This document shows, piece after piece, positions 15,001-48,000 of a stretch of DNA of 64,000 nt (the stretch's first letter is position 1; every line of letters starts with the position of its first letter). The DNA is taken from NCBI GenBank assembly GCA_965637545.1, contig OZ281495.1, positions 5,642,001-5,706,000 on the forward strand, written 5' to 3'. Made by a program: the position numbers. Origin of the DNA: Phallusia mammillata. Taxonomy: Eukaryota.

Positions 15001-18000
15001 CCAACTATGAATACAACACGTGGGCCTGTTCTGCAAACTTTGGCTTTCCTGTGCGTTGGATAACACAAACAGTTAATCGAGCTATTTTCGGTGTTTGGGA
15101 AATGACTGGCGGACGCAACCTACACTGTTGGAAGTCCCTAACTCCTAATATAGTTTGCGATGCTGCTTCCAAATTTGTCAGGCTAAAACAGGTATCTGCG
15201 CAACTTCCTTAAAACAGCAGCAACCTACAGCCTGGTGTTTAATGCCAACATAAACCAAACCGGTAAACACGTTGACATTGCTCACTGTTTTAATTTTTGT
15301 TCCCACTTGACATACTATTTCAAAATGCGAAAAATCATTTAGAAACAGGTTACAAACATGTGTAAACAAACCTTTAAAAACAAAACTTATTTAAATGTTT
15401 AATAGACTCTCTGTGTTCATGTGGACTTCTATACTTCTATTACTGCTGATACCCCGTAAACCTCATTGAGTCTTTTGATTCAGGTGAAGGCAACGCATGT
15501 TCTATTTGTGACTTGACAAATTTGTGTATTGTCACTTTTATTTATTTTTGGTGAAAAATCATAGGGCGATGATTCAAAACCACAGTGACATAGACACACT
15601 CTTGACTAATGTAAAAATACACATCTGTAAAGTTCATGCACACAATTTACTCTTTAACGCAATTACTTTAAATATGTAGACAATGAGTACCTTAAAGTAG
15701 ATTTAACTGTAAATTTAAAAGTAAACGTAAGTATATGATTTAAAGCACTTACACATTAGTTTGAACGTTTTCCATTTCCCTTATAATGTTTCGAATTTAT
15801 CGCGATACAATAAACAAACAGTTCATGCGAAACAAAACCCAGAATTTAGTTCAAAGAAAACAACAGAACAAAAAAGCGCAATTAATTACAATTTTCTGTA
15901 AACATGATGGACAACATACCCTATCAAGCATCGCATTTTTCGTTTACGATCATGCGTTGATAAACCACACAACTATCAAGCCGGAAACAGCTGCGCAAAC
16001 CAAACATAACACACTACAGTAAAGTGCAATAATTTCCTTCTACGTGATAGCGATATGCAGACTCTACGTGATACGTGATAGCTTATTATATGATATCTTG
16101 ACTTTTTAGATGAAATGCCAACAACATTTTGCGAAAAAGCACGAAAATTCTCAAAAATATACGAAAATGGGTATCAAATATTGAAACTTATACTAATTCG
16201 TGCATAAAGTTTATGATTATTTTTTCGATACTTTTAGCACAATACGTTGCTGATAAATGGCATTCAAAAATGTTACGTGGAAAGAAAACACATGCAACCG
16301 ATAATTTGACCACTTGTCCTAAACTTAAGCTTAGAAGTTTTATGCTTCATCTCACATATATATAAACATATAAAAGAAACCAAGAAAGTTGCAATAGTTC
16401 AGTTTGCTGAAATAATTTCATAATATCTCAAAAAACTTTGTGTTGAGATTTAGTTTTGCTTGCTCACATAACATTCTTCATTGCTGGTCTTTCTGCTAAA
16501 AATGCAAGTTTTTTGTTACTATTTAGACAGTTGTGTCACAACGTTTTCAAGTGGACCTATACATACTTTTCCATGTAGGTCAACTTCAGCATAAGGATCA
16601 TCATCCGAGCCTGAAAAGATTTACATAATGAATACAAAACATAAATATTAATCATCCAGTTGAAACGATGTATATTGAACAGCAGCAAAGAAAACAACAT
16701 AATGGTTTCACACAATCTGTAGTAACTTCCCCAACAAATCTGTATTAAGACATCAGCTAAAAGGGTAAACACAAGGTCTCACCTGATTCTGAAGGGGGGT
16801 CAGTTGGTGGTTCTTTCTTTTTCTTTTTTGGTTTGTTGACAACTGTATAGGTTTCACCTTTGCTTGATTCGCCCAGATTGTTATCTAGCAACAACATTTT
16901 AACAGTTATTTTTGAGTCTTTGATATGTATTAAGTCATAAAAACCATTGTTAATCAATAGTTACAATCCATTTTAATATTTTTATTGCCCCTTTTCCAAG
17001 TAAAGCTATCAACCAATTATATTGTGCTCACCATTTTTTTTCTTTTTTTTAATAACCTGTGCATAAGCATCATCCACACTCCCACCAGCTTGAGAAGTAG
17101 CATACAGAATATTGTCCTTCATTTCCTTTTCGCCACGATCTATGGATGTTTGCAAGTTTAGCACACAAAAACATTCAACAAACCCAGGTGCCCTACTTGG
17201 CTTTTGTTTCTTTCCCTTGGTTTTCTTTGTCTTATCAACTGCAGCATATGCTTCCTCTGGGGCATCAGGGTTTTCTGGGGTTGGTACATATGCCACATTC
17301 ACTTTTGTTAGTTTTTCTATCAAAATAACATTGAGATTATTTTGAATTACTCTTTCAATTTAATTAGCAAAACCTTTTTTGGGTTTCTTATTTTTATCCA
17401 CTGCAGCATATGCCTCTTCAACTGGTTGAGATGATGGTCCAGCAGGTTCATAAAGTATATTTTTTTTTGTAATTTTTTCACCTTTTACAAAAACGAAATT
17501 AAAATTTTTGACAAAAATTCATGTTCGTCAACCAGCACAACAAATAACAGTACTTTAAGGTTGGAACATGTTAAAAGTTGTTCAAACCTTTGGCAACTGT
17601 AGCATAGGAATCTTCTATTGTGCCTGCTGTTGAGGGAGACACAGTTTCTAGTTTTGATCCTGCTTTCTTAAATTTTTTAGTTTTTTTGTTGACTTTAGCA
17701 TAGGTTTCCTCTTGGTTACCATCATGGACTATACCATACAATGGGTTTTCTCTGTCTTCTTTCACACCTGATATAAACACATTTTTATTTGACTTTGTTT
17801 GTTAGTCTTGTTTGTATTGTAAGGTTTTGTTTTTGGCACTTAGTCTGGCCAGGATAAATGGTAAAAACTTAACTATTACACTTGAAATGAAATAATATTT
17901 TCAGATCAAAAGCACAAAAACTTATTATAAAATTGTTTTTTAAGACATTGCTATTTGAGTATTAGTGTATCATTTATTATTTTTATATTGTACTGATTAT

Positions 18001-45000: not shown

Positions 45001-48000
45001 AAATGCTTGAACTATAAAAGGAGTCAGATAGTGTGTTTATTTGCATACTGAACTTTCTAGCTATTACTTCAATAAACAATAAATCACCTTTTCCAAGCAA
45101 GTTAGCATGACTTTCTGCTTTTATGGGACCACTGGCAATCTTAATATTATTTGTACAATAGTTTTTAGTTTTAGACAAAAAACTTGTCATTTGTTAATTT
45201 GGTCTGTTGTTTGTATTTACAGAATCACAAACTGGCAAAATTGTTGGAGGTGTAGTTGGATCCATTCTTGGTTTGATTGTGGTGGTTTGCATCATATGTT
45301 GTTTTAAGGGATGTATCAAACGAACCAAATTTGAATGTGCCAAAACCAAATTGTGCGAACGCTGCGCCTGCCTTTGTTGTGTGTGCTGCATTTGCAAGGT
45401 ACATGGATTCACTTTATGCGAAAAGGAAAATAATGACAAAGGTAAGTAAAATGCCAAGAAATAAGCTAAAACTAAATACACAGAAGAACTCCTGATAGAC
45501 CACTGCTTGGGATTCAGTTTAAAATTAAATTAGGATTGCAATTCCTGTGTAAAATGGATAAAGCCCAGATTGCAATTAGATTTCAATAAATACCTTGATT
45601 TTCCTCACCACTTAGCTTTGTTTGTCATGTTACAACCTTAAGAAAGGATTGCTATACTGTTAGAAAAATTGTCACTGCTAAAATTGAAAATCAAAGCCAT
45701 ATTTACAATTCTCAAATAAAATTGTAGCAAAGGGATCAAAAGTTGCACCAGAAACACAAACTATAGAAATGTGAAAAGTTGCAAAAAAGACAAAATAGGT
45801 AGGAGCATGGTTTAACTCAGTGATTCCCAAACAATTTCAAACACATACCAATCGAACGACATTGAGCAGTGTTTATAATGTCAAAAAATTTTGCTCATTT
45901 GCAAGAACTTAGGTTTCACTACAACAGCTGACATCAATAAAACATTCTCTGTTAGGTCATAACTGTGTAAATTTGAATATAAGTAATTATGGATCAAGAA
46001 TTCACAACATGCAGGTTTAAACTTATTTTTTCATAAATTCTTGCCACCTAAAATATGCTTGTGTATCATCCGAAAAAGGTCTTCATGTATCACAGTTTGG
46101 GAAACACTGATGTAACTGATACTTTCTGTACTAGTTTTATTTCTTTTGATACATTTATTGCATGTTGTACTCTTGTGTTTGTTATGGTTTAACTGAAACC
46201 TTTTTATAATGCTAATGTCACTTTCTTCTGTTTTCTATCAGTTTAAACCAGTGGTTCTCAATTTATTGTTGTTGAAGCCAAAAGGTAGTTTTTCAAGGGT
46301 GTAAGGTGCAGCAAAAAAAAAAAAAAAAAATTAAAAAAGGAATGCAGGTGAACAGAAAACAACAAAAATCTAAATAGCTACTTTTTTAATAACGCCTCTC
46401 CACAGAAAAGCTCAAGTTCTAACTTTTAAGACACAATTATCTTTGTTTGTAATTATATAGGTAATAAATTGATTAAATAATTACAGTGCTTATATGTAAT
46501 AGATTATAATGCATGGTAATATTAAACTGTAGTGATTTTCTGACATCTGGTGAGGGCATAAAAATGTAGTTGGGAGCAGCATGCGGCCCTGAGAGCACGT
46601 TTGAGAATCATTGGTTTAAACTGGAAATAATTTAATTTAAGTTTAGCAGTTTGCATGCTACACTTTATGTCCAACTTGACTGCAGCTAATTGTATAATGA
46701 GCTTTGCTCATAGGTGTACAGATTTTTTTTACCATTCAAGTTTGTAAGTCTAATTCAAGTAAGCGAAAATAAATCTCATTCAAGTTTAAAAAATTATGCC
46801 TAAGTTTTGTTTGTACATTACTAGAAACATTGTAGTATTTAAAGCAGAGATCAACAACCTACAGCCTTCTTACAAAGTGGCTAATTATAAAAAAATCACT
46901 TAATAAATGAAAGTATGTGTTTAAACTCTGCTGAGGGTTTTACAAAGCTTGAATTAGAAACAGTTGCCACTACTATGTCTGCGGGATTTAAAAAAAATCA
47001 GTAACTGATGGACTTGGGTTTGTCCACTTTTTGTTATGATGGCGAAATTTACCTATCAATTACACAAAATTCAAGAAGTTTAATACCATGTAAACAGTAA
47101 TGAGAATGGAATTACAAGTGAACAGTTAGTATGGCCTACTGCGAGTGGTCTGGGTTTTGGCCTGCCACATGTGAAAGGTGACAGACCCTGGTGAAAAGAA
47201 AAGAAATAAATACTAAGTAAATGTTTAAGTGCTATTTGTATTAAAGTTGTCAACTCCAGTAAGAGGGCTTTTCAATTGGACTTAATACTGTAAATTTAAT
47301 GGTGAAAATAACCGCCTAAATAGCTGTATAAAGCGACATGCTTTATTTTTGAAACATTATAGCAAAATGCTCATGCCATCATCACTGATATGAAGGCCAC
47401 ATCAGTTACAGCAGTTTATATATCACTGATGATGGCATAAGCATTTGCCGAAACGTTTGAACAATAAAGCATGTCACTTTTTATGTCTAATTGGGCCGTG
47501 ATTTTCACCATTAAACGTATGAGTAGACCATATATACTGTAAACTTAATTTAAAAATATGTACTTTTTTATGGCAATGAAGGATGTGTTTTTTATCAGTG
47601 TGTATCTACTGGCACCATTATTGACTTTATTTTGAAACAAATGTGGTAGTGGATACTATCAACATCTAGTCATACAGTTTTTAATTTAGAATGGAGTATC
47701 TAATGACTGTACAAGGCTTATGTGATATTCAAATTGAACTTTGAAGCATGTTGAGTAGAAGGACTTCTTTTTCTTTTAGGAGTTTTTTGTAAGAAAATAG
47801 AAAAAGTCTTATTAAATTTTACAACTTTCAGAACATGGTGAAAGTCGAAATGGCAATAGCCTTTTTTGCTGAACAACCTTCTGATGGTTTTAAAATGGAC
47901 ATAAAACTGACAAAACCACTGTAATTAAAAGAACAATGATAACATCTATGAAACCCACTGTAGATAAAAATGATGACAGTGAAAACACACCTCTCTAACT

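What the first reader, a model, noticed from the sequence alone, without database searches (positions are those of the whole stretch)
16480..45441. Divergent pair of sushi-containing receptors resembling an allorecognition/paired-receptor module
Seen: a minus-strand sushi+Ig receptor with a multi-tyrosine tail and a plus-strand multi-sushi, mucin-stalk receptor with no obvious tyrosine signalling motif in the exons resolved lie head-to-head. About 15 kb of almost pure TE debris separates them, and a decayed paralog of the second gene sits at 0.4-1.9 kb. Established (from memory, needs checking): Botryllus fester-family allorecognition receptors have a sushi domain and are linked to tyrosine-motif co-receptor genes. 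Inference: this may be one unit of a birth-and-death cluster of recognition receptor/co-receptor pairs in another ascidian.
Basis: inference. Interest (0 to 1): 0.68.

Follow-up and report, generated by a model that had tools for sequence, protein, structure and literature searches.

The report
Two neighbouring surface-receptor genes, head to head
Two apparently intact cell-surface receptor genes sit back-to-back about 17 kb apart; one loosely resembles a sea-squirt self-recognition co-receptor, but the other does not look like its known partner, so a recognition "pair" is not shown.

Summary
Both genes are real. Exon chains are open, AG/GT-bounded and phase-compatible.

**Minus strand (22737-16567, 14 exons, 705 codons):**
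- candidate signal peptide
- one divergent sushi-like module
- an unverified split Ig-like module
- two well-supported Ig domains
- a 4-Cys module and one TM
- a tail of six duplicated cassette exons with 11 Tyr (8 YxxV, 4 NxxY, no canonical ITIM or hemITAM)

**Plus strand (39691-45441 and beyond, at least 10 exons, all phase 1-1 after the first):**
- signal peptide
- three sushi-signature modules and two atypical Cys modules
- three Ser/Thr-rich mini-exons
- a TM followed by 14 Cys and no Tyr
- an unresolved 3' end

**Not confirmed:**
- "Pure TE debris": only 10% of the spacer is measurable repeat, and no TE protein domain was found.
- "Decayed paralog": it is one sushi-like exon plus one S/T-rich ORF.

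**Interpretation:**
- The minus gene shares the domain inventory and tail logic of Botryllus FcoR, but lacks the N-terminal Ig and is longer.
- The plus gene fails the fester-family definers (no Ig; one TM found, not three). It looks like a CD46/vCRL1-type CCP-mucin protein.
- There are no further Ig or sushi exons in the window and no close relatives in the databases.
- The organism was not determined.

Allorecognition pairing remains a low-probability lead.

The parts
22629..22737 (-). Minus gene, candidate first exon. ATG, then a short hydrophobic signal-like stretch; ends in phase 1.
   Evidence: The scan for ATG plus a hydrophobic stretch plus a donor finds this exon with a 9/9 donor. It splices in phase to the sushi-like exon. 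The hydrophobic core is only about 8 residues, so it is a candidate only.
21627..21839 (-). Minus gene, divergent sushi-like (CCP-like) exon, phase 1-1, 71 codons.
   Evidence: For: C..C..C..W..C signature; ESM Atlas 0.96 with 22 of 30 hits in a weakly Sushi set. Against: no Pfam hit at E<=10, no PDB hit, AF2 pLDDT 44.
21013..21400 (-). Minus gene, two exons (21400-21261 and 21142-21013) that together would make about 90 aa with an Ig-like strand pattern.
   Evidence: Splice sites and phases 1-0 and 0-1. Neither half has a Pfam hit. The halves were not joined, so the Ig call is unverified.
20636..20944 (-). Minus gene, Ig domain exon (I-set/C2 type), phase 1-1.
   Evidence: Pfam Ig_3 1e-4, below its cut-off. 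1134 library proteins at E<=0.001. Neurofascin 1.9e-14 in the PDB.
20325..20576 (-). Minus gene, Ig domain exon, phase 1-1.
   Evidence: Pfam Ig_2 1.4e-6, 28.9 bits against a 27-bit cut-off. Titin, CEA and contactin about 1e-11 in the PDB. Boundaries.
19640..19827 (-). Minus gene, membrane-proximal 4-Cys module of unknown type.
   Evidence: Open frame, AG/GT, phase 1-0. No Pfam hit.
18069..18180 (-). Minus gene, transmembrane exon followed by a basic stop-transfer stretch.
   Evidence: Translation and splice sites.
16567..17767 (-). Minus gene, six cytoplasmic tail exons: 17767-17588, 17481-17374, 17316-17197, 17139-17032, 16884-16783, 16610-16567. They carry 11 Tyr, 8 YxxV, 4 NxxY and Lys-rich spacers. 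The reading frame ends at a stop at about 16520, or through a tiny last exon ending near 16480.
   Evidence: Maps and phases. The exons align as repeats at 36-53% identity.
22738..39690 (.). Spacer between the two candidate start codons (16,953 bp).
   Evidence: 10.0% is covered by repeats found within the window. 0 of 145 ORFs carries a TE protein domain. It holds SINE-like copies at 22913-23307 and 26004-26369, and a repeat with a 36-A tail at 39220-39359.
39691..39757 (+). Plus gene, candidate signal-peptide exon.
   Evidence: ATG, then a hydrophobic stretch, an 8/9 donor and phase 1.
39926..40165 (+). Plus gene exon A: a 4-Cys, Thr-rich module of uncertain type.
   Evidence: AG/GT, phase 1-1. 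No Pfam family. E=0.41 against the sushi profile.
40349..41753 (+). Plus gene exons B (40349-40519), C (40831-41004) and D (41586-41753): three sushi-signature modules, one per phase 1-1 exon.
   Evidence: Signature. Exon D: Pfam Sushi 15.5 bits, E=0.024, and ESM Atlas 0.93 with 19 of 30 hits in the Sushi set. Boundaries.
41820..42005 (+). Plus gene exon E: a 6-Cys module without the Trp, sushi-like at best.
   Evidence: AG/GT, phase 1-1. No Pfam hit.
42440..44053 (+). Plus gene exons F (42440-42553), G (43401-43496) and H (43997-44053): short Ser/Thr-rich stalk exons.
   Evidence: Ser+Thr fractions 0.49, 0.42 and 0.78. All are AG/GT and phase 1-1.
45223..45441 (+). Plus gene exon I: TM helix, then a Cys-rich juxtamembrane stretch (14 Cys in 72 aa, no Tyr). 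The 9/9 donor shows the gene continues.
   Evidence: No relatives found. No convincing downstream exon in 9 kb.
879..1802 (+). Left-edge fragment: one sushi-like phase 1-1 exon (879-1097) and one S/T-rich ORF (1721-1802). Possibly part of a third gene cut by the window edge.

Best explanation
Two separate, apparently intact, lineage-restricted type I membrane glycoprotein genes lie head to head about 17 kb apart. They are neighbours, not a demonstrated functional unit.

**Minus gene.** It encodes an immunoglobulin-superfamily receptor: a sushi-like module, Ig domains, a 4-Cys stalk and one TM. Its roughly 230-residue tail is built from six duplicated phase-1 cassette exons. Each repeat carries an N-x-x-Y site, an acidic-x-Y-A-x-V site and a lysine cluster.

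Inferred mechanism for the minus gene:
- Ligand-driven clustering lets a Src-type kinase phosphorylate the YxxV sites.
- The phosphorylated sites dock SH2 proteins. Seven of the 8 YxxV sites have A or T at +1; a Csk- or SHP-type preference for such sites is recalled, not tested.
- The NxxY sites dock PTB adaptors.
- Skipping a cassette exon would change the number of docking sites.

**Plus gene.** It encodes a CCP-mucin surface protein: 3 sushi-signature modules and 2 atypical Cys modules held on a Ser/Thr-rich O-glycosylated stalk, then a TM and a Cys-rich segment that is probably palmitoylated. This is the architecture of CD46/CD55-type complement regulators and of Ciona vCRL1. It most likely acts as a ligand-binding or protective surface molecule with no tyrosine signalling of its own.
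For: **Shown here**
- Coherent exon chains with compatible phases: 14 exons and 705 codons for the minus gene, 10 exons and 1492 nt for the plus gene.
- Two Ig exons supported by Pfam and by PDB sequence hits.
- The sushi signature occurs 7 times against 0.12 expected.
- The six-exon profile hits C2 CCP modules at 1.2e-7, and 9 of its 13 hits are CCP proteins.
- ESM Atlas points to Sushi for both exons tested.
- The tail exons align as repeats at 36-53% identity, with 8 YxxV and 4 NxxY.
- The stalk exons are 42-78% Ser+Thr, and exon I has 14 Cys and no Tyr.

**Lineage restriction**
- Among 1134 library proteins matching the Ig exon, the 150 best are 24-36% identical.
- Word-based searches with the Ig exon and with exon I found none.

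**Independence of the two genes**
- hhalign of the minus sushi exon against the plus-gene profile gives 0.5% probability.
- The candidate start codons are 16,953 bp apart.
Against: - No transcript evidence.
- The signal peptide of the minus gene is weak.
- The 3' end of the plus gene is unresolved.
- Sushi calls are below Pfam's cut-off. They are not reproduced by the plus-only profiles or by the fold search.
- Kinase, SH2 and PTB recruitment, palmitoylation and O-glycosylation are inferences from motifs; none was tested.
- Head-to-head placement of a sushi/Ig/Tyr-tail receptor beside a sushi-bearing, tyrosine-free receptor is exactly the FF/FcoR layout in Botryllus, so a functional link cannot be excluded.
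- Exons were never joined. No whole-protein search or fold was made, and such a search might have found relatives that single exons miss.
Confidence: 0.6

Rival explanations
1. The two genes form one unit of an FF/FcoR-like allorecognition module. The plus gene would be the ligand-binding, tyrosine-free receptor. The minus gene would be its signalling co-receptor, evolving by birth and death as a pair.
For: - In Botryllus, FF and FcoR lie head to head. FcoR combines Sushi, Ig domains, one TM and a tail with YxxI/L/V motifs, and both FF and FcoR show alternative splicing; FF tails lack Tyr (PMC12582321, sections 13 and 15).
- FF genes have a Sushi exon, then short extracellular exons that are alternatively spliced, then TM exons (PMC11507803, passages).
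- Here the minus gene has a sushi-like module, Ig domains, a TM, 8 YxxV and one hemITAM-like site.
- The plus gene has sushi exons, then three short stalk exons, then a TM exon with no Tyr.
- Both genes lack close relatives, as expected of fast-evolving recognition genes.
Against: - The plus gene has no Ig domain.
- It has at least 3 sushi-like modules rather than one.
- Only one TM was found.
- It is at least 497 codons against about 350 aa.
- The minus gene lacks the N-terminal Ig. It is about 705 codons against 520-610 aa, and has no canonical ITIM, hemITAM or core-2 motif.
- No second pair and no further Ig or sushi exon lies in the window.
- The sushi modules of the two genes are not alike.
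- Any two neighbouring genes are head to head about one time in four, and sushi and Ig are common ectodomain modules.
- No FF or FcoR sequence was available for a direct comparison.
Confidence: 0.12
2. The minus gene is an ordinary Ig cell-adhesion molecule of the contactin, neurofascin, PECAM or CEACAM kind. It would work in tissue adhesion or morphogenesis, not in recognition of self.
For: - The nearest solved relatives of both Ig exons are neural and epithelial Ig adhesion molecules: neurofascin, Robo, contactins, DCC, NCAM and CEA.
- The best library hits are giant multi-Ig proteins.
- A tail split over many small exons with tyrosine motifs is also a feature of PECAM-1. This is recalled, not checked.
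Against: - No ortholog-level relative: identity is at most 36% among the best 150 hits. Conserved adhesion molecules usually have recognisable orthologs.
- The hit list also includes immune-type receptors, such as FcRL5 and three short hits with ITIM-like tails.
- There are no FN3 domains.
Confidence: 0.2
3. One or both models are pseudogenes or fortuitous chains of ORFs.
For: - No homolog-guided or transcript support.
- The 3' end of the plus gene is missing.
- The signal peptide of the minus gene is weak.
- AT-rich DNA gives many open frames by chance.
Against: - All 24 modelled exons are open, and every internal boundary is AG/GT. Phases chain without a break.
- Domain signatures are far above chance.
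- No in-frame stop lies inside any modelled exon.
Confidence: 0.08

Closest known systems
Botryllus schlosseri fester co-receptors (FcoR)
   Same: - Type I membrane protein with a Sushi-type module and Ig domains.
- One TM.
- A long tail encoded by many small exons and carrying several YxxI/L/V sites, about half with an upstream acidic residue.
- Placed head to head with a sushi-bearing, tyrosine-free receptor gene.

Sources.
   Different: - No N-terminal V-type Ig; the sushi-like module comes first.
- An extra 4-Cys module.
- About 705 codons against 520-610 aa.
- 8 YxxV sites where FcoR has 1-4 core-1 motifs.
- No canonical ITIM, hemITAM or core-2 motif.
- Sequence relationship untested.
Botryllus fester family (FF: fester, uncle fester)
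   Same: - Signal-peptide exon.
- Sushi on its own exon.
- Short extracellular exons before the TM exon.
- No tyrosine motif in the resolved tail.

Sources.
   Different: - No Ig domain.
- At least 3 sushi-like modules.
- A Ser/Thr-rich stalk.
- Only one TM found where FF has three.
- A Cys-rich juxtamembrane stretch.
- At least 497 codons against about 350 aa.
Membrane regulators of complement activation (CD46/MCP, CD55/DAF) and Ciona vCRL1
   Same: - Tandem CCP modules, a Ser/Thr-rich stalk and a membrane anchor.
- MCP, DAF, Crry and factor H are among the PDB hits of the six-exon profile.
- vCRL1 is described as a polymorphic, CCP-containing, complement-receptor-like protein of Ciona blood cells with splice variants (PMC5465252, passages).
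- The CD46 and CD55 architectures are recalled, not checked.
   Different: - The CCP modules are too divergent for Pfam's cut-off.
- Two of the five modules are atypical.
- The 14-Cys cytoplasmic stretch is not a feature I know from those proteins.
- No functional or sequence comparison with vCRL1 was possible.
Vertebrate multi-tyrosine Ig receptors (PECAM-1, LAIR-1, SIRP-alpha, CEACAM1). Recalled, not checked.
   Same: - Ig ectodomain and one TM.
- A tail with several Y-x-x-V/L sites that recruit SH2 phosphatases or kinases.
- In PECAM-1, a tail split over small exons.
   Different: - The sites here lack the hydrophobic residue at -2 that defines an ITIM; they have acidic residues instead.
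- The NxxY, YAxV and Lys-cluster unit is repeated by exon duplication.

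Membership tests
FcoR (fester co-receptor, Botryllus) | Type I membrane protein with a signal sequence and a single TM | tested here: met
   Candidate signal exon 22737-22629 (weak hydrophobic core). One TM exon at 18180-18069.
FcoR (fester co-receptor, Botryllus) | N-terminal (V-type) Ig domain ahead of the Sushi domain | tested here: not met
   - No Ig hit upstream of 21839 among ORFs of 45 aa or more.
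- The F-strand motif scan finds only the two known Ig exons.
- phmmer with the Ig exons finds no others.
- The candidate first exon splices in phase straight to the sushi-like exon.
- An Ig split over three small exons could still be missed.
FcoR (fester co-receptor, Botryllus) | One Sushi domain in the ectodomain | tested here: inconclusive
   - For: Cys/Trp signature and ESM Atlas 0.96.
- Against: no Pfam hit, no PDB hit, AF2 pLDDT 44.
FcoR (fester co-receptor, Botryllus) | Two further (C2-type) Ig domains before the TM | tested here: met
   Ig exons 20944-20636 and 20576-20325. There is also an unverified split Ig-like region.
FcoR (fester co-receptor, Botryllus) | Tail with two or more tyrosine motifs (ITIM, hemITAM, core-1 YxxI/L/V, core-2 [A/D]VYxxV) | tested here: met
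   8 core-1 type YxxV and 1 hemITAM-like site. 0 canonical ITIM, 0 hemITAM and 0 core-2 in the tail exons, counted exon by exon.
FcoR (fester co-receptor, Botryllus) | Length 520-610 aa | tested here: not met
   The exon lengths sum to 2115 nt, or 705 codons, before the last few residues.
FcoR (fester co-receptor, Botryllus) | Sequence or profile similarity to known FcoR proteins | not testable with these tools
   - No FcoR sequence came into the session.
- Searches with window exons returned no named relative.
- The supplements of PMC12582321, which list the sequences, are closed.
FcoR (fester co-receptor, Botryllus) | Encoded head to head with a cognate FF gene; copy-number variation of pairs; co-expression | tested here: inconclusive
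   The gene is head to head with a sushi-bearing gene, but that gene fails the FF definers. Copy-number variation and expression are not testable here.
FF (fester family, Botryllus) | N-terminal Ig-like domain | tested here: not met
   - No Ig hit in any plus-strand ORF of 36-48 kb.
- Exon A has no Pfam family.
- There is no F-strand motif.
- phmmer finds nothing.
FF (fester family, Botryllus) | Sushi domain on its own exon, followed by short extracellular exons | tested here: met
   Exons B to D, then exons F to H. However, there are at least 3 sushi-like modules, not one.
FF (fester family, Botryllus) | Three TM domains, one per exon, and a short tail | tested here: not met
   One TM in exon I. 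No convincing phase-compatible TM exon lies in the 9 kb downstream. The 3' end is unresolved, so a miss is possible.
FF (fester family, Botryllus) | No tyrosine motif in the cytoplasmic part | tested here: met
   0 Tyr in exon I. Only the resolved part could be checked.
Pfam Sushi (PF00084) | Score at or above the gathering cut-off (20.7 bits) | tested here: not met
   The best score is 15.5 bits, E=0.024, for 41570-41797. The other five sushi-like exon ORFs tested gave no Sushi hit at E<=10.
Membrane RCA-type CCP proteins / Ciona vCRL1 | Tandem CCP modules, Ser/Thr-rich stalk and membrane anchor | tested here: met
   Exons B to D (and exon E), exons F to H, and exon I. CCP proteins make up 9 of the 13 PDB hits of the six-exon profile.
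Membrane RCA-type CCP proteins / Ciona vCRL1 | C3b/C4b binding or cofactor activity; for vCRL1, high inter-individual variability and blood-cell expression | not testable with these tools
   This needs biochemistry, population data and expression data.

The most novel reading that the evidence does not exclude
An FcoR-type signalling receptor is paired with a non-fester, complement-regulator-like CCP-mucin partner, in an animal outside Botryllus and Botrylloides. That would mean the 'tyrosine-free sushi receptor plus Ig/sushi tyrosine-tail co-receptor, head to head' layout is older and more flexible than the Botryllus fuhc system. It would also mean that self-recognition modules can recruit RCA-like ectodomains.
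Probability: 0.1. Interest if true: 0.7.

Novelty: new member of a known kind. Interest (0 to 1): 0.35.

Why it matters
- **If the pairing were real.** It would give a second, independent example of the FF/FcoR layout. In print that layout is confined to Botryllus and its relative Botrylloides: the searches found FcoR in a tunicate context only in the two Botryllus papers and a review. A second example would make the origin of chordate allorecognition modules testable by comparison.

- **As it stands.** The value is more modest: two well-defined, fast-evolving surface-receptor genes. One has an unusual tail of exon-duplicated NxxY, YAxV and Lys-cluster units, a tidy natural system for asking how the number of docking sites tunes signalling. 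The other has a CCP-mucin ectodomain and a very Cys-rich juxtamembrane stretch.

Tried and rejected
**Searches for relatives**
1. Word-based homolog searches found nothing. The Ig exon against longer proteins gave 0 hits from 56 candidates. Exon I against longer proteins gave 0 hits from 9 candidates.
2. The full HMMER scan with the Ig exon returned only generic multi-Ig proteins. None of the best 150 carries a sushi-like module by my window-built profile. Three of the 19 hits of 720 aa or less have a TM and an ITIM-like tail; I did not pursue these as kin.

**Naming the organism**
3. I tried through the LINE reverse transcriptase. The best hit is 44% identical and unnamed, so the organism is unresolved. 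I did not trace unnamed records.

**Structure route to the sushi call**
4. The exon D model (pLDDT 73) gave 0 PDB matches at E<=0.001 and no CCP fold. The minus-exon model (pLDDT 44) was too poor to search.
5. The plus-gene-only sushi profiles (A2 and A4) gave no CCP hit in the PDB. The C2 hit therefore depends on adding the minus exon and the left-edge exon.

**Features looked for and not found**
6. Further TM exons downstream of 45441: none convincing.
7. TE content of the spacer: no reverse-transcriptase fragments and no Rfam family anywhere in the window.
8. A charge-based pairing signal in the TM helices: none seen, apart from one Lys near the cytoplasmic end of the minus TM (reading).

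**Left out**
9. No complex prediction was sent, because I do not claim the two proteins bind.
10. Exons were never joined, so whole-protein searches and folds were not made.

**Coverage note**
11. In the flank scan I sent 137 of the 155 ORFs listed. I dropped 821-1144 (already scanned) and 17 ORFs nested inside the two long TE ORFs.

Full report
**Scope and limits**

The window is 64 kb of AT-rich (about 35% GC) eukaryotic DNA with one 200-N stretch at 57144-57343, which I left alone. It is not human-like. Exons were never joined, so no whole-protein search or fold exists for either gene, and that leaves some sensitivity unused. The supplements of the key paper are closed; they hold the FF and FcoR sequences that would have allowed a direct comparison.

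**What is on the minus strand**

Evidence for the Ig domains:
- Pfam over all 261 stop-to-stop ORFs of 45 aa or more in 14-48 kb finds receptor-type domains in only two. Both are Ig: 20287-20589 (Ig_2, 1.4e-6, above its cut-off) and 20631-21008 (Ig_3, 1e-4, below its cut-off).
- Both exons match solved Ig adhesion molecules: neurofascin 1.9e-14; titin, CEA and contactin about 1e-11.

Reading splice sites and frames gives 14 exons whose phases chain without a break to 2115 nt, or 705 codons. In order they are:
1. A candidate signal exon, 22737-22629, with a 9/9 donor but a weak hydrophobic core.
2. A sushi-like exon, 21839-21627.
3. Two exons, 21400-21261 and 21142-21013, that together look like a third Ig.
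4. The two Ig exons, 20944-20636 and 20576-20325.
5. A 4-Cys module, 19827-19640.
6. A TM exon, 18180-18069.
7. Six tail exons, 17767-16567.

The tail exons align with each other at 36-53% identity, around a repeat of an N-x-x-Y site, an acidic-x-Y-A-x-V site and a lysine cluster. Counted exon by exon, the tail has:
- 11 Tyr
- 8 YxxV
- 4 NxxY, of which one is NPxY
- one hemITAM-like site with V in place of L
- no canonical ITIM, hemITAM, ITAM or core-2 motif

Five of the six tail exons are phase 1-1 cassettes, so skipping one would keep the reading frame.

**What is on the plus strand**

There are ten AG/GT-bounded exons from 39691 to 45441; the nine after the signal exon are all phase 1-1:
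- a signal exon
- an atypical 4-Cys, Thr-rich exon A
- three exons (B, C, D) with the full C..C..C..W..C sushi signature
- a 6-Cys exon E without the Trp
- three short exons that are 42-78% Ser+Thr
- a TM exon followed by 14 Cys in 72 residues and no Tyr

The last donor is 9/9, so the gene runs on. I found no convincing next exon in the 9 kb downstream.

**Is 'sushi' justified?**

Support:
- The signature is far above chance: 7 hits against 0.12 expected (maximum 1) in 100 shuffles. Five are the proposed exons and two are alternative frames of the same places.
- Exon D gets Pfam Sushi at 15.5 bits, E=0.024, below the 20.7-bit cut-off. It was the only one of 14 ORFs tested to do so.
- A profile of six window exons hits complement C2 CCP modules at 1.2e-7, and 9 of its 13 PDB hits are CCP proteins.
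- ESM Atlas places exon D (0.93, 19 of 30 hits) and the minus exon (0.96, 22 of 30 hits in clusters where only 12-15% of members carry Sushi) among Sushi-type clusters.

Against:
- Profiles of the plus exons alone give no CCP hit.
- The minus exon alone gives none.
- The exon D model finds no CCP fold.
- The minus-exon model is unusable.

I conclude that these are divergent CCP-like modules. The call is secure for exon D, probable for B, C and the minus exon, and open for A and E. For comparison, the Botryllus authors report Foldseek E-values of only 1.03 to 0.036 for the FcoR Sushi domain (PMC12582321, section 11).

**Surroundings**

- The candidate start codons are 16,953 bp apart, head to head.
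- 'Almost pure TE debris' is not borne out with what I could measure.
  - Repeats found within the window cover 10.0% of the spacer.
  - 0 of the 145 ORFs inside it has a TE protein domain.
  - No reverse-transcriptase fragments are present.
  - A genome-wide repeat library might raise the figure.
- The 'decayed paralog' at 0.4-1.9 kb is one intact-looking phase 1-1 sushi-like exon (879-1097) and one S/T-rich ORF. It is linked to the plus gene by a single 21-aa tblastx match, E=0.004.
- A profile and phmmer sweep of all 1162 window ORFs of 30 aa or more finds no further sushi-like or Ig exon. The window therefore holds no second pair.
- The flanks hold a full-length LINE and a Penelope-like element.

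**Relatives**

- The full HMMER scan with one Ig exon gives 1134 proteins at E<=0.001. The best 150 are 24-36% identical and are mostly giant multi-Ig proteins. None has a sushi-like module by my profile.
- The word-based searches found nothing.
- The LINE's best relative is 44% identical and unnamed. The source species, or anything close to it, seems absent from the protein collections, and I could not verify that it is an ascidian. Introns of 57-68 bp fit a tunicate, but they also fit many other invertebrates.

**Comparison with the fester system**

What the papers say:
- FF are signal peptide, Ig, Sushi, three TM and a short tyrosine-free tail, about 350 aa.
- FcoR are signal peptide, IgV, Sushi, Ig, Ig, TM and a tyrosine-motif tail, 520-610 aa.
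- The two are encoded head to head and vary in copy number as pairs.
- An FcoR-only cluster also exists.
- Sources: PMC12582321, sections 7, 11, 13 and 15 and passages; PMC12065747 and PMC11507803, passages.

How the two genes compare:
- The minus gene meets four FcoR features: type I topology, two Ig before the TM, many tyrosine motifs, and a tail built from many exons.
- It fails two: the N-terminal Ig and the length.
- One feature, the Sushi domain, is inconclusive.
- The plus gene meets the 'sushi exon, then short exons, then TM exon, no Tyr' pattern. It fails on the Ig domain, on the number of TM helices found, on size and on the number of sushi modules.
- Its architecture is that of CD46/CD55-type membrane CCP proteins (recalled) and of Ciona vCRL1, a polymorphic CCP-containing complement-receptor-like protein of blood cells (PMC5465252, passages).
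- The sushi modules of the two genes show no special likeness to each other, and I saw no charge-pairing signal in the TM helices.

**Most likely working**

This section is inference apart from the anatomy.
- The minus protein is an Ig-superfamily receptor. Its tail becomes a multi-site phosphotyrosine scaffold after clustering. The YAxV sites serve SH2 proteins and the NxxY sites serve PTB adaptors. The lysine clusters possibly hold the tail on the membrane until activation.
- The plus protein displays CCP modules on an O-glycosylated stalk and is anchored by a TM and a probably palmitoylated Cys-rich stretch. It would act as a binding or protective surface molecule.
- I put 0.6 on 'two independent neighbouring receptor genes of these kinds', and 0.12 on a fester-like functional pair.

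**Verdict**

The domain calls are softer than stated. The TE and paralog claims are not confirmed. The allorecognition reading remains a lead that the plus gene's anatomy argues against. I class the finding as a new member of known kinds, with interest 0.35.

Noticed in passing
window 4754-8750 (-): A seemingly intact LINE. It has a 1060-aa ORF with endonuclease and reverse-transcriptase domains, and an upstream 262-aa ORF that matches Baculo_FP_2nd. Its best database relative is only 44% identical.
   Followed up: partly
window 54479-57143, beside the N run at 57144-57343: A Penelope-like element. A GIY-YIG ORF on the minus strand (54479-55099) overlaps the start of a 593-aa reverse-transcriptase ORF on the plus strand (54903-56681). 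It runs into the assembly gap.
   Followed up: no
window 57344-62093: A block of direct and inverted repeats at 80-96% identity. Examples are 57344-57894 against 59264-59810, and 58563-59008 against 60958-61406.
   Followed up: no
window 3893-4028, 18432-18602, 22913-23307, 26004-26369: Four copies of a short SINE-like repeat at 70-86% identity. One lies in the longest intron of the minus gene. A second repeat family links 18799-19338, 26359-26611 and 27095-27382.
   Followed up: partly
window 39220-39359: A repeat copy ending in a run of 36 A lies about 330 bp upstream of the plus gene's candidate ATG. It is shared with 52414-52517 and, inverted, with 27420-27490.
   Followed up: no
window 10571-10788: A 87-bp inverted repeat at 95% identity, in a stretch that translates to short proline- and lysine-rich repeats.
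   Followed up: no
window 45223-45441 (+): The cytoplasmic side of the plus gene's TM exon has 14 Cys in 72 residues. It matches no family.
   Followed up: partly
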